From Cylindrospermopsis raciborskii Cr2010 (GTDB taxonomy: Bacteria > Cyanobacteriota > Cyanobacteriia > Cyanobacteriales > Nostocaceae), in the NCBI RefSeq assembly GCF_003367075.2, contig NZ_CP065936.1, positions 3,240,001 through 3,272,000 of the forward strand: a stretch of 32,000 nt of DNA. Reading direction: 5' to 3'. The notes under the pieces were generated by a model. It was not told the DNA's origin and did not search any database. It was given only the letters and a program-made list of their open reading frames with translations. The first letter of the stretch is position 1. Each line of letters opens with the position of its first letter. Positions 15,884-32,000 of this stretch are shown in pieces. The translations under genes were made by a program, and so were the position numbers.

Positions 15884-15975
15884 GTTGGGTTTCGTTCCTC
15901 AACCCAACCGAAAAAACTAGTCGATTGAAAACCGACTTGCGCTTTCAGACAGGGAATAAATTCCCTGTCTCCCTG
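15884..15975 (-). repeat. Inverted-orientation copy of the composite dispersed element that also builds the Uma2-array spacers
   Basis: gttgggtttcgttcctcaacccaacc + aaaactagtcgattgaaaaccgact + tgcgctttcagac + agggaataaattccct. This matches block by block the reverse complement of the array segment ggtctcaaagcgaaagtcagtttaaaaccgactagttttgtc...ggttgggttgaggaacgaaacccaac. Confidence 0.65.
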
Positions 15976-16366
15976 AATATTTCATCATTAATTTAGATGC
16001 TTTTTTACATCTCAGTAAAGATTGTGCTTTTTAATTGTCATAAAAATATATTTATATTTACTGTATTTTAAGTACCCAGGCAAATTTAATTTTACATATT
16101 CATTGAAGAAATAATTTCTGTAAGGGTTATCTGTTAGGTCTTTTCAGTTATCAGTTCCCTCCCTGAACTGCGAAATTTATTTTGCACGACCACTTAATAT
16201 ACTAAAAAATTGGTATATAACTATGCCAATTGTAGCTTTGAGTCTAAATACTGATTATATATAAAGTATTTTATTTTGTAAGTACAAATCAACTAAGACT
16301 TAGGTCAGTGCTAAACTCAATATATTTACGCAAGATTTATTTACCTAATAAGTTATTTTTGTTATA

Positions 16367-16690
16367 GATTAGACCTGGTTAAATTTAGTTACATCATTTT
16401 AATGTCTGAGACCAAATATCTATCTAAAGATAGATGAAATAAAATGTGATAATCAATTACGGTCTCATTGTTAACTCTAAGTTAAAACTTGCACCTTATC
16501 GAAATATGAAAATTCACTCATTCTTCTGGTTTCCTGCGGCACTCGCTAGTTTGGCTTTTACAACATCCGTTAAAGCTGAAGAAGTTTCCGCTAAAGCTGC
16601 TGACTTGATGGGAGTCAACACTGATAATCAGGATCCGTCTAATTTATTGGCTCAATCTTCTGACGGTTTCACACCATTAGCTCCCACACC
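16367..16690 (+). repeat. Copy A of a duplicated promoter, 5' leader and signal-peptide module (partner at 17505-17830)
   Basis: gattagacctggttaaa...atatctatctaaagatagatgaaataaaatg...ctaactctaagttaaaacttgcac...atgaaaatt.actca.tcttctggtttcctgc is shared by both copies with scattered substitutions. Confidence 0.85.
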
Positions 16691-17312
16691 AAGCTCTACC
16701 ACGCCTTGGTATAGTGATAATAATCCGGATTTACCCGCGAGTAATTATGGTTACGGTAGTCTTAGCGTTGGTTTTGGTTCTCAAAGTAATGTGGATATAA
16801 CGGATAATGGTCAAAAGTGGGCGGAATTCAAGGATTTTAATGGTGCATTTTCATTTAATGCAGCATTTGGTTATCAATTTCAACTATTTAGGGCTGAATT
16901 AGAAGTTGGTAACCAGTTTTTGAGTGCCAAGAATCTAGATTATGACCTCAATACAAGATTTCCCAGAACGGGAACACTCTCTGGTAACATGAGTGCAACT
17001 ACTATTCTATTGAATAGTTATTTTGATATCCCCACGGGTTCCAAATTCCGCCCCTATGTTGGTGGTGGACTTGGTTTAGGTGTTATTACGGGTAAAATAG
17101 AGAACTTTCTTGGTGGTTACAGTCTTAATGGAACTGCTTTTGCTTACCAGTTAAAAACTGGTCTACAGTATGAAATAGCAAGAAAGGCGAACATCTTTGG
17201 TGAGTTAAAATATTCCAGTATTTCCAGTTACCAGCAAAATCAGTATGCTAGTGATGTCATTGGTCCTTTTAATTCCTTTGGAGCTGCTATTGGCTATCGC
17301 CAAGGTTTTTAA
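16506..17312 (+). CDS. Outer-membrane beta-barrel protein (OmpW/Opa-like small barrel)
   Basis: Signal peptide MKIHSFFWFPAALASLAFTTSVKA. The sequence shows alternating aromatic and Gly-rich strands and ends in ...GAAIGYRQGF with a terminal Phe (OMP beta-signal). I prefer the ATG at 16506 to the GTG at 16446. Confidence 0.75.
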   Translation: MKIHSFFWFPAALASLAFTTSVKAEEVSAKAADLMGVNTDNQDPSNLLAQSSDGFTPLAPTPSSTTPWYSDNNPDLPASNYGYGSLSVGFGSQSNVDITDNGQKWAEFKDFNGAFSFNAAFGYQFQLFRAELEVGNQFLSAKNLDYDLNTRFPRTGTLSGNMSATTILLNSYFDIPTGSKFRPYVGGGLGLGVITGKIENFLGGYSLNGTAFAYQLKTGLQYEIARKANIFGELKYSSISSYQQNQYASDVIGPFNSFGAAIGYRQGF

Positions 17313-17324
17313 CTGTTAACTGTA

Positions 17325-17369
17325 AATAACCCTCTCACCATACTGGGGTAATTGTGATGGGAGTACATA
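17325..17369 (+). repeat. About 45-bp hairpin-containing dispersed repeat (partner at 22299-22343, same orientation)
   Basis: ataaccctctcaccatactggggtaattgtgatgggagtacata compared with ataactctcccaccacactggggtaattatggtgggaatacata. The partner folds as cccacca / tggtggg. Each copy sits just after a stop codon. Confidence 0.8.
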
Positions 17370-17394
17370 AATAAGTAGGGAGGCACAATTATTT

Positions 17395-17457
17395 GTAGGA
17401 TGGGTCGAGGAACGAGACCCATGCGGGGGTTGGGTTGAAGTATGAAACCCAACCTAC
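17395..17457 (+). repeat. Twin hairpin dispersed repeat
   Basis: atgggtcgaggaacgagacccat is followed by ggttgggttgaagtatgaaacccaacc, and the pair is enclosed by gtagg...cctac. Confidence 0.7.
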
Positions 17458-17504
17458 GTTGATCTTATATTTAATTCCACTCACCCACTTATATATCAAA
17501 TAGG

Positions 17505-17830
17505 GATTAGACCTGGTTAAAATTAGTGACATTATTATTTTAATATCTGAACCGAATATCTATCTAAAGATAGATGAAATAAAATGCTACAATTAATTAT
17601 GGTGTCACTGCTAACTCTAAGTTAAAACTTGCACTCTATCTTCTAAGAATATGAAAATTTACTCAATCTTCTGGTTTCCTGCAATACTTGCTAGTTTGGT
17701 TTCGACTGCATCCGTTAAAGCTGAGCAAGTTTCCAATAAATCTGCTAACCTAATAGGAGTCAGCACCGATAATCAGAACCGATCTAATTTGTTGGCTCAA
17801 TCTTCTAACCCCGGTTTTACGACAACATCC
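17505..17830 (+). repeat. Copy B of the duplicated promoter, 5' leader and signal-peptide module
   Basis: See 16367-16690. Confidence 0.85.
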
Positions 17831-18259
17831 CCTACAACAGGTTCTACTCCTTTAAAATTATCTCAAGGTATAGCACCTAGAGTTATTAAACTGCGGTTAT
17901 CAGACACTGGTATTTCAATTGGTAGTGTAATCTTTTGGGGAATTGCTGGGTTATTTCAAAAGAGATCAACGGACTGGGTACGGCTAGAAATAAATGGGAA
18001 TGAAGTTAAGGTAGTACATACAACCAGAACAACTAACACAATTACTCAGTTTTCAAAATGGTGGGATCATCCTGTCAGAAAAATTGCTTTCAAACCGGAT
18101 TCTTGTACTAACAGTTCAGATTGCGTTGTAGTCAATAAGGAAAATGGGATAATAGACATCAACGATATAAGTTTGTTGAGCAAAGGAGAATTTCAAATTG
18201 AATACCTAGAAAGCGGTGAGTGGAAATATGTGGACTTCAGAGTTCCAGCTAAAGAGTAG
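17651..18259 (+). CDS. Secreted protein of unknown function; N-terminal ~55 aa paralogous to the upstream OMP
   Basis: MKIYSIFWFPAILASLVSTASVKAEQVSNKSANLIGVSTDNQNRSNLLAQSS aligns with the OMP N-terminus. The C-terminal ~140 aa is unrelated to the barrel. Confidence 0.6.
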   Translation: MKIYSIFWFPAILASLVSTASVKAEQVSNKSANLIGVSTDNQNRSNLLAQSSNPGFTTTSPTTGSTPLKLSQGIAPRVIKLRLSDTGISIGSVIFWGIAGLFQKRSTDWVRLEINGNEVKVVHTTRTTNTITQFSKWWDHPVRKIAFKPDSCTNSSDCVVVNKENGIIDINDISLLSKGEFQIEYLESGEWKYVDFRVPAKE

Positions 18260-18395
18260 ATATAGAGGAAAAGGGCTAAAAGCTGAAAGGAAATTTCTAT
18301 CCAGATATTAACAAATCTATCGAAATGTCCACATACTAAAATGTAGTGTATGCAGAAGTAAAACCTAATAATCCTTGGTACTATGAATCCTCTAA

Positions 18396-18620
18396 GGTTC
18401 TAAGAATCGGGCTAAGGCTATTTCTAAACTGGCTAAAACTCACGCTAAAGTGTAAAACATTCGCAAAGATGCCATTCATAAACTCACTTATGATCTCGCT
18501 AAAAACCACAGCGTTATCAAAATTGAAGAATTGAGTATCAAAGCATTTTTGAAGAATTACAAACTAGCTGGTGCAATTGGGGATTGTGGAATGTACGAAT
18601 TCAAGCGCCAATTAGAATAT
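18396..18620 (+). pseudogene. tnpB: Internal fragment of an IS200/IS605-family TnpB gene
   Basis: Translation: GSKNRAKAISKLAKTHAKV*NIRKDAIHKLTYDLAKNHSVIKIEELSIKAFLKNYKLAGAIGDCGMYEFKRQLEY. This is a typical TnpB mid-section including the RuvC-II Glu. It has one in-frame stop and both ends are missing. Confidence 0.7.
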
Positions 18621-18760
18621 ATCCCACATTCCGCACCCTCAACTATGATGGAGGGAAATTACGGAGATAAAAAATCAAAGTTAGCATAAAAATAAACATA
18701 GAGAGTGAAAAAAGGATTCGAGAAACAGTAAATCAGCAAAAATGTCATCAAAATCTATTC

Positions 18761-19987
18761 TCAATGAGCAGCAATAAGAATTCACATTACCCACACAAGT
18801 AAACAAATAAATAAAATTAAGATATTCAATGAACATAACTGATTTGTTGACACATACAAGCTTGAAGATAGCGGAACTTATCTAACATTTTTTCACCCCA
18901 TTCATTGGGAACGGATACAAGTTGTAAAATTAGATAAGCGATGAGACTGGCATAAATTTGTATGCCAATGCCATTAACGTTTTTCGTAATTAATTTATCC
19001 AATTTTAGGTGCATTTTTAAAAACTTCCATAACAGTTCAACTCCCCACCGTAAACGATAAATATCTCTGATTTCATCATCTGTAACTGCTGCTTCTCCAT
19101 CTGCAGGTAAATTCGTGACTAAGCCAAATTCTGTTTTCGTTTCTAAATCACAAAAGTTAACTACCCTGTAAGCAGAAGCATGACTCGCCGAACCGATTTT
19201 TACTAATCCAGTTTCTACTTCAAATTCTAGTTTACAATTATTCTTAATTCGTACCACAAAGTATTTGTCTTTTTGTACTAACTCCCGTATAAAATTTAGT
19301 CCTGCAAAACCTCTATCCATTACCCCAACTGCATCTTGAGGTAAATTAGACATCATTGATGAGCCAAATTTGTAATCATGATTATGTCCAAAATTTATCA
19401 AATTATCTTCTGGACTTCCCGTAGAAAGATTCAGGGAGCTAAACAATTTTACTTGATGATAACCTAAAACCCATAACAACTTACTTGTTAAAGTAATTAT
19501 TGTTGAATCGATTGAACAAATTGCGTATTTATCATGTAGCTTTTTATAAGCTTTTTTTGTACCAATTTATTCAATTGATGATAAATATTTTGGAATATCT
19601 CTTGATTCCTGTGTTTGTTAGCTTTGGAAAATGTCGAAATTATTACATCAATACCTGTATGGTTTAATCTTGTAAATAAGTCCCGCATACTTGTTAAACT
19701 ATTATCCAAGGCATAAGCCAACCAACACTCAACATAAAGACGGCTGTTCAAAACTGGATAATCATTTTTTGGTAACGGTCTGAGGATGTCCTTGACAATC
19801 TTGGGGAATGAATTTATGATCATTATCAAATTAATATTTTGATATGGGTTGCCCAAATTTTAATATATTTTGGGCAATTTTTATCACAACTTTCTTAACA
19901 TTCAACACTTCTACTACATTACCTTTTGAGTGATTTCCTATTCTGTATTCCAGTGTTGTCTTCATATTGTTTCGTGGCTGCTATTGA
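18761..19987 (-). mobile_element. IS4-family insertion sequence (boundaries approximate)
   Basis: It contains the transposase below. The only terminal inverted-repeat candidates are weak: tcaatgagcagc at 18761 versus the reverse complement of gctgctattga ending at 19987. No target-site duplication was seen. Confidence 0.35.
18826..19856 (-). pseudogene. IS4-family DDE transposase, split by a frameshift in an A7/T7 run
   Basis: The two ORFs (119 aa and 217 aa) join into ...LVQKK|AYKKLHDKYAICSIDSTIITLTSKLLW... if one base is added in the T7 run at 19562-19568. The IS4 Y-(2)-R-(3)-E-(6)-K signature is present as YRLRWGVELLWKFLK, and the DDE Asp context as GVMDRGFAG. Confidence 0.8.
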
Positions 19988-20044
19988 CAAGTAAATCATA
20001 TCTCAACTATACTTTTGAAATCAACAAACATTGAAGGTCGAACA

Positions 20045-21312
20045 ATGTACGGATGCCAACAAGTTCTTATCAAGTCCGATAAATCAATAACAGCGATATT
20101 GGAGTACCTCTGCACAGAAGCTAAAAAGCTGACAAATTGTGGCGTTTACTATTCTAGGCAGATGTACTTTAAAACTGGTTATATTCCTAGTAGAGCAGAT
20201 TTGCATAAACAACTAGGAACTTATCAGAAAAACGTTCATTATCAGGCATTGTATTCTGATACTTCTCAACAAATACTAACCAGTGTAGCTGAATCCTTTA
20301 AATCGTACATTGGGCTAGTAAAAGCTGCAAAAAAGGGCGAAGTTTCCCAAAAACCAAAATTACCTAATTACTGTAAAAGTGTTATGACTGTAGCTACTTT
20401 TACGGGCAGGTCATTAAAGTTAATTGATGGGATGATTAGGTTTCCTTTGGGAACAAAAGTTAAGGCATGGTTTGGGATAGATTCTTTTTGTCTACCAATG
20501 CCATCTAACCTTGACTTCAAATCAATCAAGTACGCATTTTACCTAGAAATAGACAATTTTATGCAGAATTTGTCTATCAGGTAGATGAAATAAAATCTGA
20601 TGTTGATAGAAATAATGTTTTAGGGATTGACCACGGGTTAAATAACTGGTTAACTTGTGTTTCTAATCTGGGAACATCATTTATTGTTGATGGACTTCAT
20701 TTAAAAAGTTTAAATCAGTGGTACAACAAATCAGTAGCTAAACTTAAAAGTGATAAACCGCAGGGTTTTTGGTCTAACAGATTAGCTGCTATTACCGAAA
20801 AAAGAAACCGACAAATGTGTGATGCAGTTAACAAAGCTGCAAGAATAGTCGTTAACCACTGTATTGAAAATAAGATTGGTGCTATTGTTTTTGGATGGAA
20901 TAAAGGACAAAAAGATAGTATTGATTTGGGGCCTAAAAACAATCAGAAGTTTGTCCAAATTCCCACAGCAAGATTAAAAGACCGTATTGCTCAATTATGT
21001 AAACAATACGGAATAGATTTTATTGAAACAGAAGAATCATACACTTCTCAATCATCGTTTTTTGATTGCGACAATATACCTAAATTCGGTGAAAAACCCG
21101 AAGGGTGGGAAGCAAGCGGGAAACGAGTTAGTCGGGGAGTATATGAAACTTCTGATGGGTTCAAAATTAATGCGGACTGTAATGGTGCTGCTAATATTTT
21201 GAAAAAAGTAGCGGTGATGCTAGGAATTGATCTTAGCGGAATCAGTAGAGGCTGTTTAAGCCAGCCTCAGAAAGTTCGTTTATGGACTCTTCAGAAATCT
21301 CCGTGTCTTTAG
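20045..21312 (+). pseudogene. tnpB: RNA-guided endonuclease TnpB, one frameshift
   Basis: The N-terminal part (frame 2) runs to ...SNLDFKSI. The C-terminal part (frame 1) reads QVRILPRNRQFYAEFVYQVDEIK...VLGIDHGLNNW...ETEESYTSQ...INADCNGAANILKK, which contains the RuvC D/E/D contexts. The frame switch must lie between 20515 and about 20530. Confidence 0.85.
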
Positions 21313-21330
21313 ACCGGAGAAGCTTAACTG
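21130..21330 (+). ncRNA. Candidate TnpB omega/reRNA scaffold
   Basis: Called by position only. In IS200/IS605 TnpB elements the guide RNA is transcribed from the 3' end of tnpB through the right end, and the terminal hairpin is present here. No covariation or expression evidence is available. Confidence 0.3.
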
Positions 21331-21837
21331 AGACATAACTTGTGCGCGTATTGAATTAGCAGCTGTCTCTGCAATTTCTGCTCTATCAGAATCAGTAAGA
21401 AGTACTGCAAGTAGCGATTTAAGAGCTTCGCGGTTATATATAAACTCTTTCGAGTATAAATTATCTTGCAACAAGGTGGCTTCTAAGTAAGGTAATAGCT
21501 CAGGTGGAGGAGATAGCAACCTTTCTTTAATGCGTCTCCTTGCAGTCTCTATTGCTGAAGAAGTACCTACACCTAAATCCCATGTTTCAATTATTAGCCT
21601 GATTTCACGGTTAAGTGATACACGCAGCGTTGATAAGCGACTAAATAAAGGAAGGTTAAGCATTAAAGGTGGTAGTACATTTCCCCAATCTAAACCAGCA
21701 CTAATAGTGCAATTGGCTTCATCTTCGATACGAGTAGCCTCATCGAGCCATCCTTCACCCAAAAGTAAATCTATGGCTTCTTGGGTTGTTACTGGCTCAT
21801 TCACCTGAAAATTATTATTTTGCTGTTGATGATTCAT
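21280..21837 (-). CDS. Hypothetical protein; native 3' end replaced by the TnpB-element right end
   Basis: 185-aa ORF. The last ~14 codons (SFSGLKTRRFLKSP*) are read from the reverse complement of the TnpB right-end hairpin and the tnpB 3' end, so the C-terminus is chimeric. Confidence 0.5.
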   Translation of the reverse strand: MNHQQQNNNFQVNEPVTTQEAIDLLLGEGWLDEATRIEDEANCTISAGLDWGNVLPPLMLNLPLFSRLSTLRVSLNREIRLIIETWDLGVGTSSAIETARRRIKERLLSPPPELLPYLEATLLQDNLYSKEFIYNREALKSLLAVLLTDSDRAEIAETAANSIRAQVMSQLSFSGLKTRRFLKSP

Positions 21838-21848
21838 AAATTGTTACC

Positions 21849-22178
21849 TTATCTCCGTCTTAATGCCCCATACTCAAAATAAACTAGATTATCGTATTCT
21901 TCATCAGGTCCGCAGTTAAACATATTTTGTTTTTCATAAAATCCTACAGACCTTAGTAAAGAATGTAACCCCACTCTACCTTCATACCCAAGCTCAACAC
22001 TTCTAATTCTGGCAAAATTTAAAAGTGCTTGACCAACACCTTTGAATTGAGGCGGACGCTGAATTTCAATTCGGTTAGTGGGGGTAGTGGCAATACCATC
22101 AACATAAACTAGTCTCTTACCAATATTCAACCGGGAACCGTGCATTTGTGTTTCTATTATCATTAGAGGTATTATCAA
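21849..22178 (-). pseudogene. GNAT-family N-acetyltransferase, N-terminally truncated fragment
   Basis: It retains beta4 and the acetyl-CoA motif (VDGIATTPTNR...QFKGVGQALLNFA) and the C-terminal part. An in-frame stop lies just upstream of the TTG at 22178, and no upstream GNAT N-terminal sequence exists in any frame. Confidence 0.6.
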
Positions 22179-22298
22179 TACCTCTTTTTAATGAAATTTT
22201 TCGTTGCATTGCTTCGTCAAATATACCCCTACATTATTAATATTTTAGCCCACATTCCGCGCCTAAGCTGTAACAGATCAAAGAGGATAGTAGTACAT

Positions 22299-22343
22299 AA
22301 TAACTCTCCCACCACACTGGGGTAATTATGGTGGGAATACATA
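22299..22343 (+). repeat. Partner copy of the ~45-bp hairpin repeat at 17325
   Basis: See 17325-17369. Stem cccacca / tggtggg, located 5 nt from the aminotransferase stop codon. Confidence 0.8.
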
Positions 22344-25983: not shown

Positions 25984-26128
25984 GTTAGTCTCCCCACTGC
26001 TTTAAACTGAGTTGCTTTTTCATTTTTCACCTGATCTCAAGTTACCATCGGGCAATTACTAAAAAGAGCAACTAGAAAAAATTTATCCACTGGTTGTTTA
26101 ATGAAGATGTGAATTAAACACATTTGTA

Positions 26129-26452
26129 TTACTCAGGGCAATTATGTGCAATCCAACCTAAAATCACCTGATTAACCAGTTCAGGTGACTCATCATGGGG
26201 ACAATGACCCACCTCTTGTAAATATAACACTTCTAACTTATCATTATATTTAGCAAATTCAGAAGCCAATTTAGGTGGGATAAATCTATCCTTTTCTCCC
26301 CAAATCAACAGCATAGGAATGGTTAAATTGGGTAATAGAGTCTTAGCGCTAGGACTAAGTTCTGCACCAATAGAGGCTTTAAACAGGGCGATAAAAGCAC
26401 GAGTAGAACATCTATCTTGGGGTGGTCCTGCCAAAATATCAATTAACTCATC
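26129..26452 (-). pseudogene. Alpha/beta-hydrolase, C-terminal ~107 codons only
   Basis: DELIDILAG...IPMLLIWGEKDRFIPP...LQEVGHCPHDESPELV retains the Asp and His regions but has no GxSxG nucleophile region. The first 35 codons of the track ORF (MLRNRLYGVNRIYIYPVGLLGFVPQPNLRLPTTKL) are read from the array repeat, not from the hydrolase. Confidence 0.7.
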
Positions 26453-26475
26453 TAGTTTTGTCGTGGGTAATCGTA

Positions 26476-26501
26476 GGTTGGGTTGAGGAACGAAACCCAA
26501 C
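26476..26501 (+). repeat. GGTTGGGTTGAGG-N-AACCCAAC hairpin, a dispersed Nostocales-type repeat, one per array unit
   Basis: ggttgggttgaggaacgaaacccaac. Cognates occur near 27976, 29432 and 30974, and related copies at 15565, 15884 (inverted) and 17428. Confidence 0.8.
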
Positions 26502-26542
26502 AAACCAACCGGATATATATAAATGCGATTGACTCCATACAG

Positions 26543-26688
26543 GCGATTGCGCAGCACTCCCTAGGGGAGATCGCCAATTACCCGTTATTGTTTAAATTAA
26601 ACCCTACCTGGAGACTGTCTGTGGGGGAGACCGGGAATCAATTCTGGGTCTCAAAGCGAAAGTCAGTTTAAAACCGACTAGTTTTGTG
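26543..26688 (+). repeat. Spacer sub-element B (146 bp); cognates at 28043-28188 and in units 3 and 4
   Basis: gcgattgcg.agcactccctaggggagatcgcc...attgtttaaattaa...tacctggagactgtctgtgggggagaccgggaatcaatt.tgggtctcaaagcgaaagtc.gttt.aaaccgact.gttttgtg. It ends in a 9-bp palindromic hairpin (agtcggttt/aaaccgact) followed by GTTTTGTG. Confidence 0.75.
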
Positions 26689-26697
26689 ATATTGTAA

Positions 26698-26717
26698 GTT
26701 GAGTTCAATAACTCAAC
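26698..26717 (+). promoter_or_regulatory. Perfect 8-bp hairpin gttgagtt-caat-aactcaac about 70 nt upstream of each Uma2 start (also at 28198, 29654, 31196)
   Basis: The inverted repeat is seen directly. Downstream lies a TGn-TATATT-like extended -10 (ctatgttatatt; tatatc in unit 1). Candidate operator or promoter-proximal structure. Confidence 0.4.
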
Positions 26718-26785
26718 ATCCCTAAACAAACTATGTTATATCAAATTAAACCGATTAAGTCAGTACCAAAGTGGGAGGTATAGAC

Positions 26786-27736
26786 ATGGTGAGGCAAATT
26801 CCATCAAAAACTCAACTGCGGGTGATAGATTCTAACATTAGTCAGGGTGTGGAGACGCCTAAAATTGTCTACCCAGAAAGTGATAATAAACCTATGGCGG
26901 ATAACACTAGACAATTTACATGGATTGTCAAAATTAAGGAAAATTTAGAAATACTATTTAAGTATAATGCGGATGTGTTTGTGGCTGGGGACTTATTTTG
27001 GTATCCAGTGGAGGGTAGTAACAAAATTAAACTAGCCCCTGACACCATGGTAGTGTTTGGGAGACCCAAGGGGCACCGGGGGTCTTATCGACAGTGGGAA
27101 GAGAATAATATTCCACCCCAGGTGGTGTTTGAAATTTTATCTCCTGGTAATAATAATACTGAGATGGACAGAAAAAAGCTCTTTTATCTGGAACATGGAG
27201 TGGAGGAGTATTATGTATATGATCCAGATAGGATTAGTCTAGAAGTATCCATTAGGGAAAATAACTCATTTAATGAGATTGAGAATTTTACCACTTGGAC
27301 CAGTCCAAGATTGAAAATAAGATTTGACATGAGCCAAGATGAATTAGTCATCTATTATCCAGATGGGAGTAAGTTTCTTAGTCCTGTAGAATTGAGTAAT
27401 TATGCAGAACAAGAAAGATTTCTCAAAGAACAAGAAACTCAACGTGCAGAACGTGAAAAATTGCTTAAAGAGCAAGAAACCCAACGTGCAGAACGTGAAA
27501 AATTGCTTAAAGAGCAAGAAACTCAACGTGCAGAACAAGAAACTCAACGTGCAGAACGTGAAAGACTTCTCAAAGAGCAAGAAACCCAACGTGCAGAACA
27601 AGAAAGATTTCTCAAAGAACAAGAAACTCAACGTGCAGAACGTGAAAGACTTCTCAAAGAGCAGGAACAAATAAAGTATCAAACCTTGCTATCACAATTA
27701 AAAGCTAAGGGTATTGATATTACTGCACTCGAATAA
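26786..27736 (+). CDS. Uma2-family (DUF820, PD-(D/E)XK-like) endonuclease with C-terminal E/R/K-rich repeat helix, copy 1 (316 aa; 6 QETQRAE heptads)
   Basis: Core: YPESDNKPMADNTRQFTWIVKIKENLE...DVFVAGDLFWYPVEG...APDTMVVFGRPKGHRGSYRQWEENNIPPQVVFEILSPGNN...GVEEYYVYDPD. GGAGG lies 8 nt upstream of the ATG at 26786. Confidence 0.85.
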   Translation: MVRQIPSKTQLRVIDSNISQGVETPKIVYPESDNKPMADNTRQFTWIVKIKENLEILFKYNADVFVAGDLFWYPVEGSNKIKLAPDTMVVFGRPKGHRGSYRQWEENNIPPQVVFEILSPGNNNTEMDRKKLFYLEHGVEEYYVYDPDRISLEVSIRENNSFNEIENFTTWTSPRLKIRFDMSQDELVIYYPDGSKFLSPVELSNYAEQERFLKEQETQRAEREKLLKEQETQRAEREKLLKEQETQRAEQETQRAERERLLKEQETQRAEQERFLKEQETQRAERERLLKEQEQIKYQTLLSQLKAKGIDITALE

Positions 27737-27742
27737 ACTATT

Positions 27743-27773
27743 ACCTCCACCAGAATACCCTTGGGAGGTTTTT
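27743..27773 (+). terminator. Intrinsic terminator after Uma2 copy 1
   Basis: The acctcc ... ggaggt stem is followed by TTTTT. Cognates lie at 29199-29229 (stem mutated to acctGc) and 30741-30771. Confidence 0.45.
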
Positions 27774-27802
27774 AAAAACTGGAGTTTATACTAAAGAGAA
27801 GA

Positions 27803-27962
27803 GCGATTGGGAAGCACTCCCTACGGGAGCTGGCGAAACACTCTCTATGGGAGCTCCCCAGGGGATTAACCATAATTGTTTAAATTAACCCCTACCTGGA
27901 GACTGTCTGTGGGGGAGACCGGTCTCAAAGCGAAAGTCAGTTTAAAACCGACTAGTTTTGTC
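27803..27962 (+). repeat. Spacer sub-element A (160 bp), paralogous to sub-element B; absent from the first unit
   Basis: It aligns with B over the shared blocks gcgattg.gaagcactccctacgggag, attgtttaaattaa, tacctggagactgtctgtgggggagaccgg and tctcaaagcgaaagtcagtttaaaaccgactagttttgt. It has a 29-nt insertion and a 13-nt deletion relative to B. Confidence 0.75.
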
Positions 27963-28285
27963 ATGGGTAATCGTAGGTTGGGTTGAGGCACGAAACCCAA
28001 CAAACCAACCGGATATATATAAATGCGATTGACTCCATACAGGCGATTGCGAAGCACTCCCTAGGGGAGATCGCCAATTACCCGTTATTGTTTAAATTAA
28101 TCCATACCTGGAGACTGTCTGTGGGGGAGACCGGGAATCAATTTTGGGTCTCAAAGCGAAAGTCGGTTTTAAACCGACTGGTTTTGTGATATTGTAAGTT
28201 GAGTTCAATAACTCAACATCCCTAAACAAACTATGTTATATTAAATTAAACCGATTAAGTCAGTACCAAAGTGGGAGGTATAGAC

Positions 28286-29192
28286 ATGGTGAGGCAAATT
28301 CCATCAAAAACTCAACTGGGGGTGATAAAATCTAACACTAATCAGGGTGTGGAGACGCCTAAAATTGTCTACCCAGAAAGTGATAATAAACCTATGGCGG
28401 ATAACACTAGACAATTTACATGGATTGTCAAAATTAAGGAAAATTTAGAAATACTATTTAAGTCCAATGCGGATGTGTTTGTGGCTGGGGACTTATTTTG
28501 GTATCCAGTGGAGGGTAGTAACAAAATTAAACTAGCCCCTGACACCATGGTAGTGTTTGGGAGACCCAAGGGTCACCGGGGGTCTTATCGACAGTGGGAA
28601 GAGGATAATATTCCCCCAGGTGGTGTTTGAAATTTTATCTCCTGGTAATAATAATACTGAGATGGACAGAAAAAAGCTCTTTTATCTAGAACATGGAGTG
28701 GAGGAGTATTATGTATATGATCCAGATAGGATTAGTCTAGAAGTATCCATTAGGGAAAATAACTCATTTAAGGAGATTGAGAATTTTACCACTTGGACCA
28801 GTCCAAGATTGAAAATAAGATTTGACATGAGCCAAGATGAATTAGTCATCTATTATCCAGATGGGAGTAAGTTTCTTAGTCCTGTAGAATTGAGTAATTA
28901 TGCAGAACAAGAAAGATTTCTCAAAGAACAAGAAACTCAACGTGCAGAACGTGAAAAATTGCTTAAAGAGCAAGAAACCCAACGTGCAGAACGTGAAAGA
29001 CTTCTCAAAGAACAAGAAACTCAACGTGCAGAACGTGAAAGACTTCTCAAAGAGCAGGAAACTCAACGTGCAGAACAAGAAACTCAACGTGCAGAACGTG
29101 AAAGACTTCTCAAAGAGCAGGAACAAATAAAGTATCAAACCTTGCTATCACAATTAAAAGCTAAGGGTATTGATATTACTGCACTCGAATAA
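28286..29192 (+). pseudogene. Uma2-family endonuclease copy 2, frameshifted at a poly-C tract (5 QETQRAE heptads)
   Basis: C5 at 28613-28617, where copy 3 has C7 and copies 1 and 4 have CCACCCC. The reading frame stops at 28628-28630. The downstream part continues in another frame (track ORF 28557..29192). Confidence 0.8.
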
Positions 29193-29741
29193 ACTATTAC
29201 CTGCACCAGAATACCCTTGGGAGGTTTTTAAAAACTGGAGTTTATACTAAAGAGAAGAGCGATTGGGAAGCACTCCCTACGGGAGCTGGCGAAACACTCT
29301 CTATGGGAGCTCCCCAGGGGATTAACCATAATTGTTTAAATTAACCCCTACCTGGAGACTGTCTGTGGGGGAGACCGGTCTCAAAGCGAAAGTCAGTTTA
29401 AAACCGACTAGTTTTGTCATGGGTAATCGTAGGTTGGGTTGAGGCACGAAACCCAACAAACCAACCGGATATATATAAATGCGATTGACTCCATACAGGC
29501 GATTGCGAAGCACTCCCTAGGGGAGATCGCCAATTACCCGTTATTGTTTAAATTAATCCATACCTGGAGACTGTCTGTGGGGGAGACCGGGAATCAATTT
29601 TGGGTCTCAAAGCGAAAGTCGGTTTAAAACCGACTGGTTTTGTGATATTGTAAGTTGAGTTCAATAACTCAACATCCCTAAATAAACTATGTTATATTAA
29701 ATTAAACCGATTAAGTCAGTACCAAAGTGGGAGGTATAGAC

Positions 29742-30734
29742 ATGGTGAGGCAAATTCCATCAAAAACTCAACTGGGGGTGATAAAATCTAACACTAATCA
29801 GGGTGTGGAGACGCCTAAAATTGTCTACCCAGAAAGTGATAATAAACCTATGGCGGATAACACTAGACAATTTACATGGATTGTCAAAATTAAGGAAAAT
29901 TTAGAAATACTATTTAAGTCCAATGCGGATGTGTTTGTGGCTGGGGACTTATTTTGGTATCCAGTGGAGGGTAGTAACAAAATTAAACTAGCCCCTGACA
30001 CCATGGTAGTGTTTGGGAGACCCAAGGGTCACCGGGGGTCTTATCGACAGTGGGAAGAGGATAATATTCCCCCCCAGGTGGTGTTTGAAATTTTATCTCC
30101 TGGTAATAATAATACTGAGATGGACAGAAAAAAGCTCTTTTATCTAGAACATGGAGTGGAGGAGTATTATGTATATGATCCAGATAGGATTAGTCTAGAA
30201 GTATCCATTAGGGAAAATAACTCATTTAAGGAAATTGAGAATTTTACCACTTGGACCAGCCCAAGATTGAAAATAAGATTTGACATGAGCCAAGATGAAT
30301 TAGTCATCTATTATCCAGATGGGAGTAAGTTTCTTAGTCCTGTAGAATTGAGTAATTATGCAGAACAAGAAAGATTTCTCAAAGAACAAGAAACTCAACG
30401 TGCAGAACGTGAAAAATTGCTTAAAGAGCAAGAAACCCAACGTGCAGAACGTGAAAAATTGCTTAAAGAGCAAGAAACCCAACGTGCAGAACGTGAAAGA
30501 CTTATCAAAGAACAAGAAACTCAACGTGCAGAACGCGAAAGACTTCTCAAAGAGCAGGAAACTCAACGTGCAGAACAAGAAACTCAACGTGCAGAACGTG
30601 AAAGACTTCTCAAAGAGCAGGAAACTCAACGTGCAGAACGTGAAAGACTTCTCAAAGAGCAGGAACAAATAAAGTATCAAACCTTGCTATCACAATTAAA
30701 AGCTAAGGGTATTGATATTACTGCACTCGAATAA
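29742..30734 (+). CDS. Uma2-family endonuclease copy 3 (330 aa; 7 QETQRAE heptads)
   Basis: Same core as copy 1. It has a C7 tract at 30069-30075 and one extra 42-bp repeat. Confidence 0.85.
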   Translation: MVRQIPSKTQLGVIKSNTNQGVETPKIVYPESDNKPMADNTRQFTWIVKIKENLEILFKSNADVFVAGDLFWYPVEGSNKIKLAPDTMVVFGRPKGHRGSYRQWEEDNIPPQVVFEILSPGNNNTEMDRKKLFYLEHGVEEYYVYDPDRISLEVSIRENNSFKEIENFTTWTSPRLKIRFDMSQDELVIYYPDGSKFLSPVELSNYAEQERFLKEQETQRAEREKLLKEQETQRAEREKLLKEQETQRAERERLIKEQETQRAERERLLKEQETQRAEQETQRAERERLLKEQETQRAERERLLKEQEQIKYQTLLSQLKAKGIDITALE

Positions 30735-31283
30735 ACTATTACCTCCACCAGAATACCCTTGGGAGGTTTTTAAAAACTGGAGTTTATACTAAAGAGAAGA
30801 GCGATTGGGAAGCACTCCCTACGGGAGCTGGCGAAACACTCTCTATGGGAGCTCCCCAGGGGATTAACCATAATTGTTTAAATTAACCCCTACCTGGAGA
30901 CTGTTTGTGGGGGAGACCGGTCTCAAAGCGAAAGTCAGTTTAAAACCGACTAGTTTTGTCGTGGGTAATCGTAGGTTGGGTTGAGGCACGAAACCCAACA
31001 AACCAACCGGATATATATAAATGCGATTGACTCCATACAGGCGATTGCGAAGCACTCCCTACGGGAGATCGCCAATTACCCGTTATTGTTTAAATTAATC
31101 CATACCTGGAGACTGTCTATTGGGGAGACCGGGAATCAATTTTGGGTCTCAAAGCGAAAGTCGGTTTAAAACCGACTGGTTTTGTGATATTGTAAGTTGA
31201 GTTCAATAACTCAACATCCCTAAACAAACTATGTTATATTAAATTAAACCGATTAAGTCAGTACCAAAGTGGGAGGTATAGAC

Positions 31284-32000
31284 ATGGTGAGGCAAATTCC
31301 ATCAAAAACTCAACTGGGGGTGATAAAATCTAACACTAATCAGGGTGTGGAGACGCCTAAAATTGTCTACCCAGAAAGTGATAATAAACCTATGGCGGAT
31401 AACACTAGACAATTTACATGGATTGTCAAAATTAAGGAAAATTTAGAAATACTATTTAAGTCCAATGCGGATGTGTTTGTGGCTGGGGACTTATTTTGGT
31501 ATCCAGTGGAGGGTAGTAACAAAATTAAACTAGCCCCTGACACCATGGTAGTGTTTGGGAGACCCAAGGGGCACCGGGGGTCTTATCGACAGTGGGAAGA
31601 GAATAATATTCCACCCCAGGTGGTGTTTGAAATTTTATCTCCTGGTAATAATAATACTGAGATGGACAGAAAAAAGCTCTTTTATCTAGAACATGGAGTG
31701 GAGGAGTATTATGTATATGATCCAGATAGGATTAGTCTAGAAGTATCCATTAGGGAAAATAACTCATTTAAGGAAATTGAGAATTTTACCACTTGGACCA
31801 GTCCAAGATTGAAAATAAGATTTGACATGAGCCAAGATGAATTAGTCATCTATTATCCAGATGGGAGTAAGTTTCTTAGTCCTGTAGAATTGAGTAATTA
31901 TGCAGAACAAGAAAGATTTCTCAAAGAACAAGAAACTCAACGTGCAGAACGTGAAAAATTGCTTAAAGAGCAAGAAACTCAACGTGCAGAACGTGAAAAA
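31284..32000 (+). CDS. Uma2-family endonuclease copy 4, 3'-partial (runs off the window)
   Basis: Open frame of 239 codons from the ATG at 31284 to the window end, with the same SD and same core. It is absent from the ORF track only because no stop codon is reached. Confidence 0.8.
   Translation, partial: MVRQIPSKTQLGVIKSNTNQGVETPKIVYPESDNKPMADNTRQFTWIVKIKENLEILFKSNADVFVAGDLFWYPVEGSNKIKLAPDTMVVFGRPKGHRGSYRQWEENNIPPQVVFEILSPGNNNTEMDRKKLFYLEHGVEEYYVYDPDRISLEVSIRENNSFKEIENFTTWTSPRLKIRFDMSQDELVIYYPDGSKFLSPVELSNYAEQERFLKEQETQRAEREKLLKEQETQRAEREK

What the first reader, a model, noticed from the sequence alone, without database searches (positions are those of the whole stretch)
26452..32000. Head-to-tail array of at least four near-identical Uma2 (DUF820) nuclease cassettes, open-ended at the window edge
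Seen in sequence:
- The junction motif ctagttttgtc(a/g)tgggtaatcgtaggttggg recurs at 26452, 27952, 29408 and 30950, giving periods of 1500, 1456 and 1542 bp.
- The units differ only by a handful of substitutions, 42-bp-step indels and one 2-nt indel.
- Each unit is a self-contained expression module. It has a structured spacer, an extended -10-like box, a GGAGG SD, an ATG, an ORF of 300-330 codons, and a hairpin-T5 terminator.
- The N-terminal ~200 aa carries the motifs I recognise as the Uma2/PF05685 PD-(D/E)XK-like core: APD...VVFEILSPGN...EEYYVYDP.

Established knowledge: Uma2 genes are greatly expanded in cyanobacteria and have no assigned biological role. To my recollection they occur as scattered single genes.

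Inference: a homogenised tandem array of independently expressed copies suggests one of three things. It could be recent amplification under dosage selection, concerted evolution of a functional multi-isoform locus, or the footprint of a selfish or mobile cassette. The array may be longer than what is visible.
Basis: partly seen in the sequence, partly recalled or inferred. Interest (0 to 1): 0.8.

Follow-up and report, generated by a model that had tools for sequence, protein, structure and literature searches.

The report
Hypervariable tandem Uma2 nuclease gene array
This is a real head-to-tail array of near-identical Uma2 (restriction-endonuclease-like) genes in Cylindrospermopsis raciborskii. 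It sits at the same chromosomal site in all seven conspecific genomes read, varies from 4 to 12 copies between strains, and encodes proteins whose long helical linker differs in 7-residue steps; no paper in the searched library describes it and its function is unknown.

Summary
The junction motif occurs exactly four times, and the units (1500, 1456 and 1542 bp) are 96-100% identical. Each unit carries a promoter-like box, a Shine-Dalgarno site, a Uma2 gene (PF05685, 58-60 bits against a cut-off of 27) and a terminator-like hairpin.

The organism is Cylindrospermopsis (Raphidiopsis) raciborskii. The same lpdA-hydrolase locus holds such an array in the six other genomes read:
- 4 units in one strain, 12 in another, and at least 5-7 in the rest.
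- No two strains share the same series of protein lengths (253-365 aa, always in 7-residue steps).

Repeats are nested at three levels:
- 21/42-bp repeats inside the gene, encoding a predicted helix of about 100 residues.
- A ~226-bp hairpin-rich spacer element, present 1-3 times.
- The ~1.3-1.75-kb gene unit.

At least two further arrays and one single-copy paralog exist in these genomes. Divergence within an array is low (dS 0.02-0.05) and between arrays higher (0.2-0.5), with dN/dS of 0.1-0.25. That pattern indicates concerted evolution of functional genes. Orthologs in about 75 other cyanobacterial genomes are single-copy.

I found no integrase, no phage relative, no Rfam family and no literature description. 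It is an old, species-wide, recombination-driven array, not a recent amplification, a mobile cassette or an assembly artefact. Its function remains unknown.

The parts
26027..26452 (-). Left copy of duplicated segment S: about 100 bp of intergenic DNA plus the 3' 324 bp of an alpha/beta-hydrolase gene. The listed ORF 26129-26557 is a chimera of 108 hydrolase codons and 34 codons read out of the first spacer element.
   Evidence: 99.5% identical over 426 bp to the 3' part of the intact 303-aa hydrolase at the far end of the array in L002. Pfam Abhydrolase matches cover only the C-terminal part of the profile. The right-hand copy is preceded by a deletion-ridden lpdA 5' remnant.
26452..27951 (+). 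Array unit 1 (1500 bp), the edge unit.
   Evidence: Junction motif and alignment A1. It is 99.85% identical over 650 nt to unit 1 of the 12-unit array in CP091284.1, which makes it a positional ortholog.
27952..29407 (+). Array unit 2 (1456 bp).
29408..30949 (+). Array unit 3 (1542 bp).
30950..32000 (+). Array unit 4, cut by the window end.
26786..27736 (+). Uma2 gene copy 1, 316 aa: a disordered N-terminal 23 residues, a PD-(D/E)XK core with a beta subdomain (about residues 35-195), one long helix (200-307), and the tail LKAKGIDITALE.
   Evidence: Pfam PF05685, 58.3 bits. AF2 model with mean pLDDT 82. Foldseek hits to 9y1l, 6okh, 3ot2 and 1wdj at probability 1.0. Residues invariant across 35 orthologs are kept.
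28286..29192 (+). Uma2 gene copy 2, frameshifted, either as a pseudogene or through an assembly error.
   Evidence: Split ORFs 28271-28630 and 28557-29192. A 2-nt deletion is visible in the alignment.
28613..28617 (+). C5 homopolymer, the site of the frameshift. Other units carry C7 or CCACCCC here, encoding Pro-Pro.
   Evidence: Across 47 units of this array in seven genomes: CCACCCC 22, C7 19, C6 2, C5 1 (the remaining three are CCTCCCC in array 3). All three tract-length frameshifts lie in the run of C.
29742..30734 (+). Uma2 gene copy 3, 330 aa, intact.
   Evidence: Pfam, 60.6 bits; ORF list.
31284..32000 (+). Uma2 gene copy 4, open at the window edge.
27403..27667 (+). 21/42-bp tandem repeats in copy 1, encoding E/R/K/Q-rich 7/14-residue repeats (ERLLKEQETQRAER). 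The equivalent blocks are 28901-29123, 30359-30665 and 31901-32000.
   Evidence: TRF periods of 21, 42, 63, 84 and 105; repeat families D1 and D2. This stretch is predicted as a single helix with pLDDT 91-98.
27737..27781 (+). Post-stop terminator-like hairpin followed by T5. It recurs at 29193-29237 and 30735-30779. Its first 12 nt (ACTATTACCTCC) are complementary to the Shine-Dalgarno region.
   Evidence: Sequence. These 44 bp are shared with the single-copy paralog. Pairing with the SD region appears in the MFE fold.
27802..27961 (+). Spacer element R, variant A, which lacks the 14-15-nt loop of hairpin H3. It recurs at 29258-29417 and 30800-30959.
   Evidence: (D10).
27962..28187 (+). Spacer element R, full 226-bp copy with hairpins H1 (GTTGGGTT..AACCCAAC), H2, H3 and H4 plus a U-tract. 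Further copies lie at 26452-26687 (5'-truncated at the array border), 29418-29643 and 30960-31185.
   Evidence: Direct repeat spaced 226 bp apart. R occurs 1-3 times per spacer in other strains and in array 3. It is related to the tail of an HNH-gene remnant found in array 2. The 549-nt spacer as a whole folds with z = -3.2 on the + strand and -5.3 on the - strand. No Rfam family matches.
28188..28285 (+). Promoter-like region and 5' leader, with a TG-extended -10 ending at 28242 and GGAGG about 7 nt before the ATG. It recurs at 26688-26785, 29644-29741 and 31186-31283.
   Evidence: Promoter scan. The last ~70 bp are conserved with array 2, array 3 and the single-copy paralog.

Best explanation
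The locus is an old, species-wide tandem array of functional Uma2 genes in Cylindrospermopsis raciborskii. It is a nested repeat maintained and reshuffled by homologous recombination.

Shown:
- One promoter-gene-terminator module, also present as a single-copy paralog elsewhere in the genome, lies between copies of a ~226-bp hairpin-rich element, R.
- Units are head to tail and kept alike within an array, but they differ from the other arrays.
- Copy number at this site ranges from 4 to 12 between strains.
- The number of R copies per spacer ranges from 1 to 3.
- Protein length varies in 7-residue steps through 21/42-bp repeat gain and loss.

Inferred:
- Unequal crossing-over and gene conversion between units and between R copies expand, contract and homogenise the array.
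- Slippage or unequal exchange in the 21/42-bp repeats sets the length of a ~100-residue charged alpha-helix. This helix separates the PD-(D/E)XK nuclease core from a conserved C-terminal tail (YQxLLxxLxAKGID).
- Each genome therefore encodes a ladder of isoforms of one nuclease, each from its own promoter.
- Purifying selection on the nuclease domain and retention of all family-invariant residues suggest the proteins are used.
- The array most likely serves dosage and/or linker-length diversity of a host nucleic-acid-cutting enzyme, rather than being a selfish element.

The substrate and cellular role are not known.
For: - Motif, periods and identity.
- Uma2 identity by HMM, fold and invariant residues.
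- Same locus in six other genomes, each with a different unit count, a different series of protein lengths (253-365 aa, all 1 mod 7) and spacer lengths of 309/525/549/761 bp.
- Complete arrays of 4 units (L002) and 12 units (L094, CP091284.1), both ending at an intact hydrolase.
- Further arrays: at least 13 units in CS-505 (L087) and 3 units in G7 (L093). Single-copy paralog.
- Divergence: dS within arrays 0.016-0.047 against 0.20-0.52 between arrays and the single copy; dN/dS 0.11-0.25 between them.
- About 70 bp upstream and 44 bp downstream are shared with the single-copy gene, so the module carries its own signals.
- Array GC (0.399) equals the rest of the window (0.392).
- Edge unit is positionally orthologous between strains.
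- Orthologs are single-copy in about 75 of 80 species-level genomes, and lie between panB and trmFO in 28-29 of them.
- Ortholog lengths also step by 7 aa (231 to 266).
Against: - No expression, protein or activity data exist for any copy, so 'functional' rests on dN/dS and conserved residues only.
- Within-array dN/dS is higher (0.34-0.38) and rests on very few substitutions.
- About 5-10% of units are frameshifted.
- The window's own genome is not in the look-up collection, so its true copy number is unknown.
- The species-representative genome collection returned no Cylindrospermopsis record. The within-genus picture therefore rests on seven genomes.
- The origin of the ~0.5-kb flanking duplication is unexplained by simple unequal crossing-over.
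- Short-read assemblies collapse such arrays, so their absence in other genera may be under-detected.
Confidence: 0.65

Rival explanations
1. Defence reading: the array is a battery of anti-phage or anti-plasmid nucleases, and its copy-number and linker-length hypervariability is driven by an arms race.
For: PADLOC candidate family PDC-S03 matches at E 5e-10. The locus is among the most strain-variable stretches seen. The restriction-endonuclease fold is confirmed.
Against: PDC-S03 is an untested candidate, and the match is at general Uma2-family level. The flanks are housekeeping genes (lpdA, trpC, hydrolase), not a defence island. Orthologs in Nostoc sit stably between panB and trmFO. The nuclease domain is conserved rather than diversifying, with dN/dS 0.1-0.25. 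No partner methylase or sensor gene is present in the units.
Confidence: 0.12
2. Selfish or neutral amplification: the units are junk or self-propagating DNA that spreads within the genome (for example by circles excised from an array and reinserted). They would be tolerated rather than used, with gene conversion mimicking constraint.
For: At least three arrays lie at unrelated loci in one species. Arrays 1 and 3 share the R spacer, so a gene-plus-spacer segment moved. The array is flanked by a ~0.5-kb target duplication, as after a Campbell-type insertion. Relatives at 64-67% identity occur in Desulfobacterales contigs of 45-50% GC, which suggests horizontal transfer. Some units are frameshifted.
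Against: Between-array dN/dS of 0.11-0.25 over dS 0.2-0.5 requires selection on the protein. All 35-ortholog invariant residues are retained. No transposase or integrase is associated with the units. The site is fixed across strains. Array 3 has no flanking duplication. There are no viral homologs.
Confidence: 0.15
3. Assembly artefact: a single or few-copy gene was inflated into an array by mis-assembly of repeats.
For: Repeats of 1.5 kb at 96-100% identity are hard to assemble. The frameshift sits in a homopolymer, a typical long-read error site.
Against: Units differ by unit-specific substitutions, repeat numbers and spacer types. Independent assemblies of six other strains, several of them complete chromosomes, all show arrays at the same site, and no two are alike. 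Short-read assemblies and metagenomes give collapsed 1.2-2.2-kb contigs containing gene-to-gene junctions, as expected for true tandem copies.
Confidence: 0.03

Closest known systems
Uma2 / DUF820 / TT1808 family (Pfam PF05685; structures 1wdj, 3ot2, 6okh, 9y1l)
   Same: HMM match well above the gathering score. The predicted core superposes on all four solved family members at probability 1.0. The conserved PD...E-I-L-S motif region is present. As with the whole family, no biochemical function is known; a published survey lists it only as a predicted endonuclease with conserved context in cyanobacteria (PMC3424549).
   Different: The solved proteins are 150-190-residue single domains. This subfamily adds a ~100-residue charged helix of variable length and a conserved C-terminal tail, and in this genus it is arrayed in tandem.
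Single-copy orthologs of the same subfamily in Nostocales and other filamentous cyanobacteria
   Same: 58-67% identity and the same three-part architecture. The linker is built of EQExQRA heptads, and its length varies between species in 7-aa steps.
   Different: One copy per locus in about 75 of 80 genomes, and at most pairs otherwise. They lie in a stable housekeeping context, panB-Uma2-trmFO. They lack the R spacers and the 15-residue N-terminal insertion of the Cylindrospermopsis clade.
Tandem gene amplification with concerted evolution (unequal crossing-over and gene conversion; general bacterial genetics, from established knowledge)
   Same: Head-to-tail units, copy-number polymorphism at a fixed site, within-array homogeneity, an edge unit that escapes homogenisation, and mosaic sharing of variants between units.
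   Different: Bacterial amplifications are usually transient and collapse without selection (my own knowledge). This one is present in every strain read, at three loci, in one of the smallest Nostocales genomes (PMC2821919).
NsiR1 small-RNA tandem array of heterocystous cyanobacteria (recalled from memory, not tested here)
   Same: A Nostocales locus made of direct repeats, each with its own promoter and terminator.
   Different: NsiR1 units are about 60-nt non-coding RNAs. Here the unit is a 1.3-1.75-kb protein-coding module, and Rfam (which should include NsiR1; I did not check) gave no match in the window.
Length-variable helical spacers acting as molecular rulers, such as the repeat-number variants of the HsdS subunit of type I restriction enzymes, and ER/K single alpha-helix linkers (recalled from memory)
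   Same: Short in-frame DNA repeats change the length of a helical spacer between two functional parts of a nuclease-related protein in discrete steps.
   Different: There is no evidence here that linker length changes specificity. The C-terminal partner is a ~20-residue tail, not a DNA-recognition domain. Whether the helix is monomeric or a coiled coil is untested.
PADLOC phage-defence candidate PDC-S03
   Same: The Uma2-type nuclease domain matches three PDC-S03 profiles at E 5e-10 to 1e-7.
   Different: It is a candidate only. There is no defence-island context here and there are no phage homologs.

Membership tests
Uma2 / DUF820 (PF05685) | Profile match above Pfam's gathering score | tested here: met
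   58.3 and 60.6 bits against a cut-off of 27 for the two intact copies; 40.5 bits for the C-terminal ORF of the frameshifted copy.
Uma2 / DUF820 (PF05685) | Restriction-endonuclease-like (PD-(D/E)XK) fold resembling solved family members | tested here: met
   AF2 model with mean pLDDT 82. The top seven Foldseek PDB hits are 9y1l, 6okh, 3ot2 and 1wdj, E 2e-6 to 3e-5, probability 1.0.
Uma2 / DUF820 (PF05685) | Conserved acidic motif residues (A-P-D ... V-V-F-E-I-L-S-P) | tested here: met
   D86, E116 and 60+ other columns are invariant across 35 orthologs and present in the window protein. Their catalytic role is inferred from the superfamily, not shown.
Uma2 / DUF820 (PF05685) | Nuclease activity | not testable with these tools
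   No member of the family has a published activity in the searched library.
Tandem gene array under concerted evolution | Head-to-tail units in one orientation sharing a junction | tested here: met
Tandem gene array under concerted evolution | Paralogs within an array more alike than paralogs between arrays of the same genome | tested here: met
   dS 0.016-0.047 within arrays against 0.20-0.52 between arrays and the single copy.
Tandem gene array under concerted evolution | Copy-number polymorphism at a fixed chromosomal site | tested here: met
   4 units (L002), 12 units (L094), and at least 5-7 in four others, all between lpdA and the hydrolase.
Integron or other site-specific cassette array | Adjacent integrase/recombinase, and cassettes with different cargo bounded by attC-type sites | tested here: not met
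   Gene lists for 10 kb on each side show no integrase. Every unit carries the same gene. The only transposase is an IS inserted inside the CS-505 array.
Anti-phage defence system (PADLOC PDC-S03 candidate) | Profile match | tested here: inconclusive
   E 5e-10, 37 bits, with no curated cut-off. The match covers only the generic Uma2 core.
Anti-phage defence system (PADLOC PDC-S03 candidate) | Defence-island or mobile-element context | tested here: not met
   Neighbours are lpdA, trpC, an aminotransferase and a hydrolase. Orthologs lie between panB and trmFO. No viral relatives.
Phase-variable contingency gene | Simple-sequence tract in the coding region whose length variants switch the reading frame | tested here: inconclusive
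   A C7 tract is present in 19 of 47 units. C6 (twice) and C5 (once) variants cause frameshifts in three genomes. Homopolymer assembly error cannot be excluded.
ER/K-type single alpha-helix or coiled-coil spacer | Long uninterrupted helix built of charged heptad-multiple repeats | tested here: met
   Helix 200-307 with pLDDT 91-98. 14-residue ERLLKEQETQRAER repeats. Weak Pfam FAZ1_C repeat match.
ER/K-type single alpha-helix or coiled-coil spacer | Monomeric stable helix as opposed to a dimeric coiled coil | not testable with these tools
   Needs CD, SEC-MALS or a complex prediction.

The most novel reading that the evidence does not exclude
The array is a selected 'length ladder'. Each genome keeps many copies of one nuclease because the copies differ in the length of a rigid helical spacer: 14 lengths were seen, spanning 112 residues, roughly 17 nm if fully helical. 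The spacer would act as a molecular ruler between the catalytic core and a tail-mediated anchor or partner. The battery would then cut, or sense, nucleic acid at a range of distances, and recombination in the nested repeats would continually regenerate that diversity. This would be a new way for bacteria to diversify an enzyme without changing its active site, and it would give the large Uma2 family its first functional handle.
Probability: 0.1. Interest if true: 0.8.

Novelty: new variant of a known kind. Interest (0 to 1): 0.5.

Why it matters
Uma2/DUF820 is one of the most expanded protein families in cyanobacteria, and no member has an assigned role. Here one conserved, normally single-copy member has been amplified to dozens of copies in a bloom-forming, toxin-producing species with one of the smallest Nostocales genomes. 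The copies remain under purifying selection.

Closely related strains (99.3-99.7% identical in the flank) differ from 4 to 12 copies at this site and in every linker length. That natural series is a ready-made experiment: correlate copy number and isoform set with phenotype, phage sensitivity, DNA uptake or genome stability.

The locus is also a practical hazard and a practical tool. It collapses in short-read assemblies into 1.2-2.2-kb contigs. Conversely, its nested repeats would make a very discriminating strain-typing marker for C. raciborskii blooms.

Tried and rejected
- **Exact-protein look-up of the window's own Uma2 copies.** They are not on record with either start codon, so the array could not be extended in this strain. 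I used lpdA and database paralogs instead.
- **Rfam.** Neither the gathering nor the permissive threshold gave anything credible for the spacer; the only hit was VrrA at E 2.4.
- **Spacer element R as an independent small-RNA gene.**
  - The spacer as a whole folds better than shuffles.
  - Its H3-H4-H1 hairpin module occurs outside arrays with compensatory changes in H3.
  - However, no promoter-like site precedes it.
  - Part of it is homologous to the 3' end of a decayed HNH gene.
  - I therefore treat it as a dispersed hairpin repeat or mobile-element remnant and did not build a covariance model.
- **Group II intron origin of the HNH remnant.** No domain V-like sequence follows it (judged by eye), so I dropped this.
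- **Integron or cassette model.** Rejected, because there is no integrase and every unit has identical cargo.
- **Synteny of the C. raciborskii single-copy paralog (aroE-UPF0175-Uma2-sucC) with other genera.** No match at all. Other genera use panB-trmFO.
- **Phage origin.** No viral relative.
- **Minus-strand ORFs.** The 63-, 66- and 98-126-aa ORFs are by-products of the repeats.
- **NCBIfam.** No meaningful hit.
- **Flanking duplication at array 3.** Searched for and found none.

Full report
**Observation**

The motif CTAGTTTTGTCRTGGGTAATCGTAGGTTGGG occurs exactly four times in the window, all on the + strand, at 26452, 27952, 29408 and 30950. None is expected by chance. The stretches between them (1500, 1456 and 1542 bp) and the partial fourth unit align at 96-100% identity.

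The length differences lie almost wholly in a block of 21/42-bp tandem repeats near the 3' end of each gene. The one other indel is a 2-nt deletion in unit 2. It shortens a run of C (C5 at 28613-28617) and splits that copy into two ORFs.

The intact copies are 316 aa (26786-27736) and 330 aa (29742-30734). I count from the ATG that aligns with the conserved MVQQ start of orthologs, not from the upstream GTG that the ORF list uses. Both match Pfam Uma2 (PF05685) at 58-61 bits against a gathering score of 27.

**Anatomy of a unit**

Comparison with a single-copy paralog elsewhere in the same species separates the parts of a unit.
- About 70 bp upstream of the ATG is shared with that paralog. This stretch holds the TG-extended -10 box TGTTATATT and GGAGG.
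- 44 bp after the stop is also shared. This holds a hairpin followed by T5. Together these look like the gene's own expression signals.
- The rest of each spacer is array-specific. It consists of one to three tandem copies of a ~226-bp element that I call R.

R is a string of hairpins: H1 (GTTGGGTT...AACCCAAC), H2, H3, and H4 followed by GGTTTTGT. In the window every inter-gene spacer is the 549-bp form with two R copies. One of the two lacks the H3 loop (family D10). Other strains also have 309-, 525- and 761-bp spacers.

The 549-nt spacer folds better than shuffled controls on both strands (z = -3.2 and -5.3). It matches no Rfam family, and no promoter-like site precedes R. Part of R is homologous to the 3' end of a decayed HNH gene that sits, in the opposite orientation, in the spacers of a second array. 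An H3-H4-H1 module also occurs outside arrays, at window 15884-15975 (minus strand) and upstream of the hydrolase, with compensatory changes in H3. I read R as a dispersed hairpin repeat or mobile-element remnant that supplies recombination homology, not as a demonstrated RNA gene.

**Organism and locus**

Database names identify the organism as Cylindrospermopsis (Raphidiopsis) raciborskii. The window's own Uma2 proteins are not on record. Its lpdA protein, however, is identical in 24 contigs, and the six places shown all carry a Uma2 array on the same side of lpdA.

No two strains agree:
- L002 has a complete array of 4 units.
- CP091284.1, the strain closest to the window in the flank (99.7%), has 12 units, two of them frameshifted.
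- The others have at least 5-7 units within the 10 kb that could be read.
- Intact proteins take 14 different lengths from 253 to 365 aa, all 1 mod 7.

Window unit 1 is 99.85% identical to unit 1 of CP091284.1 but only about 98% identical to the inner units. This is the classic edge unit that escapes homogenisation.

The array therefore almost certainly continues beyond base 32000. It is not an assembly artefact. It is also not a recent event.

**Borders of the array**

The 142-codon 'hydrolase' ORF at the left border is a chimera. It combines 108 codons from the 3' end of an alpha/beta-hydrolase gene with 34 codons read out of R.

The same 426 bp (99.5% identical) recur at the far end of the array as part of an intact 303-aa hydrolase. 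There they are preceded by a deletion-ridden remnant of the lpdA 5' end. The structure is therefore:

lpdA - S - array - S' - rest of the hydrolase

S is a ~0.5-kb duplicated segment. This could result from a tandem duplication with capture of the Uma2 segment at the junction, or from a Campbell-type insertion. I cannot decide between these. A second array that I could check on both sides has no such duplication.

**Other copies in the genome**

The same genomes hold further copies:
- An array of at least 13 units in CS-505, at 2.72 Mb.
- An array of 3 units in strain G7.
- A single-copy paralog between a UPF0175 gene and sucC.

The first CS-505 genome paper mentions an internally repetitive repeat cluster present 39 times (PMC2821919). 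That may be this unit, but I could not verify it.

Nei-Gojobori estimates on the 630-bp nuclease domain are as follows:

| Comparison | dS | dN/dS |
|---|---|---|
| Within arrays | 0.016-0.047 | 0.17-0.59 (few substitutions) |
| Between arrays and the single copy | 0.20-0.52 | 0.11-0.25 |

This is concerted evolution within each array combined with purifying selection on the protein.

Array GC equals that of the rest of the window. No integrase or transposase flanks the array, and no relative was found in viral contigs.

**Other taxa**

Among species-representative genomes, relatives of 58-67% identity occur in about 75 Nostocales and other filamentous cyanobacteria, and also in several Desulfobacterales bins. 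They are single-copy per locus, with two exceptions: a pair in one Nostocaceae MAG, and a collapsed 1.4-kb contig with a gene-to-gene junction in Sphaerospermopsis aphanizomenoides (87% identity).

In 28-29 Nostoc-type genomes the gene lies between panB and trmFO, which is a stable housekeeping context. Metagenome contigs show tandem copies only in the Cylindrospermopsis-like group (84% identity or more), plus occasional pairs elsewhere.

Two caveats apply. Short-read assemblies collapse such arrays. The genome collection also returned no Cylindrospermopsis record at all.

**The protein**

All orthologs share one architecture:
- a Uma2 core;
- a charged repeat linker, EQExQRA heptads elsewhere and 14-residue ERLLKEQETQRAER units here;
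- a conserved tail, YQxLLxxLxAKGIDxxxL.

Ortholog lengths in other species also step by 7 residues. An AlphaFold2 model of copy 1 (35-sequence alignment, mean pLDDT 82) gives an alpha/beta core with a beta subdomain and a single helix from residue 200 to 307 at pLDDT 91-98. The core matches the four solved Uma2/DUF820 structures at probability 1.0. All of these are structural-genomics entries without assigned function. All residues invariant across the 35 orthologs, including D86 and E116 of the PD...E-x-L-S motif, are present.

**Interpretation**

What is shown:
- a nested, three-level tandem repeat;
- a fixed location with variable content across strains;
- homogenisation within arrays;
- purifying selection;
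- an intact nuclease-family core joined to a variable-length helix.

What I infer:
- Unequal crossing-over and gene conversion between units and between R copies, perhaps aided by cyanobacterial polyploidy (my own knowledge), drive expansion, contraction and homogenisation.
- Repeat slippage or unequal exchange sets the linker length.
- The array gives the cell high dosage and/or a ladder of linker-length isoforms of a host nuclease.

The rivals are a defence battery, selfish spread, and artefact. I weigh them at about 0.12, 0.15 and 0.03. The PADLOC match to the untested candidate PDC-S03 is family-level similarity only.

**Literature and novelty**

Full-text searches found no description of Uma2 arrays in this or any organism. 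The searches combined Uma2, DUF820, Cylindrospermopsis/raciborskii, tandem, endonuclease and pangenome. A PD-(D/E)XK survey lists the family only as a predicted endonuclease with conserved context in cyanobacteria.

The genes are annotated one by one in public genomes, so the sequences themselves are not new. The recognition of the locus as a species-wide, hypervariable, nested array of a conserved nuclease appears to be new. I class it as a new variant of a known kind, namely a tandem gene array under concerted evolution of a known protein family, and I rate its interest as moderate.

Noticed in passing
window 28613-28617, and the same site in 47 units of L001-L004, L006, L093 and L094: The Pro-Pro codons exist as two synonymous alleles, CCACCCC (22 units) and C7 (19 units). 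The three tract-length frameshifts in this array (C6 twice, C5 once) all lie in the C-run allele. This could be slip-strand on/off switching of single copies or homopolymer assembly error.
   Followed up: partly
window 26027-26452; L002 (reverse-complemented) 17800-18314: The array is bracketed by a ~0.5-kb duplication of the lpdA 5' end, the intergenic region and the hydrolase 3' end. The lpdA remnant at the far end differs only by three deletions (5, 13 and about 47 bp), with no substitutions. How the Uma2 segment came to lie between the two copies is unexplained.
   Followed up: partly
window 15884-15975 (minus strand); L094 19749-19870: A ~95-nt module of three hairpins (H3, H4 with a U-tract, H1) like that of spacer element R occurs outside the arrays. 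H3 keeps its stem through changes on both sides (GAGACC...GGTCTC against GAGACAGGGAAT...ATTCCCTGTCTC). The H1 hairpin alone is dispersed in many Nostocales and is tandemly repeated six times in L066.
   Followed up: partly
window 27737-27750 against 28270-28285 (and each unit): The 12-14 nt directly after the stop codon (ACTATTACCTCCAC) are complementary to the Shine-Dalgarno region (GTGGGAGGTATAGAC), so the coding region is bracketed by a short inverted repeat. In the MFE fold the two pair. The CCTCC part is not conserved in other arrays (CCTGG, CCTGC, CCTGT).
   Followed up: no
L087 2424-2684, 4272-4388 and 7792-8052 (minus strand): The second array in CS-505 carries 86-aa HNH endonuclease remnants between some units, with no start codon and a stop just upstream. 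They are flanked by pieces of R in the opposite orientation to the Uma2 genes.
   Followed up: partly
L003 5452-7110: In strain CS-505 a 552-aa DUF4277 transposase gene is inserted inside the lpdA-locus array.
   Followed up: no
L008-L011, L031, L038, L048, L058, L059, L076: Relatives at 64-67% identity, with their own kind of charged repeat linker, sit on contigs binned as Desulfobacterales or Deltaproteobacteria. Most of these contigs have GC 45-50% (the gene itself is 48% in L011). This suggests horizontal transfer out of cyanobacteria rather than bin contamination.
   Followed up: partly
window 16000-22300 against L001-L006: The stretch on the other side of lpdA/trpC is also strain-variable. 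It holds outer-membrane beta-barrel genes, IS1 and TnpB/IS605-type genes in some strains, and identity drops from over 99% to 80-93%.
   Followed up: no
alignment A2, columns 50-66: The Cylindrospermopsis/Raphidiopsis proteins carry a ~15-residue N-terminal insertion (SKTQLRVIDSNISQG) that is absent from all other orthologs. It is predicted disordered (pLDDT below 50 for residues 1-23).
   Followed up: no
L071 6620-7420 and seven other loci: A different Uma2 subfamily member lies next to the ortholog in 8 genomes. It also ends in a Q/E/R-rich helix and a tail, LRDMGVNPDE. The helix-plus-tail extension may therefore be a wider feature of cyanobacterial Uma2 proteins.
   Followed up: no
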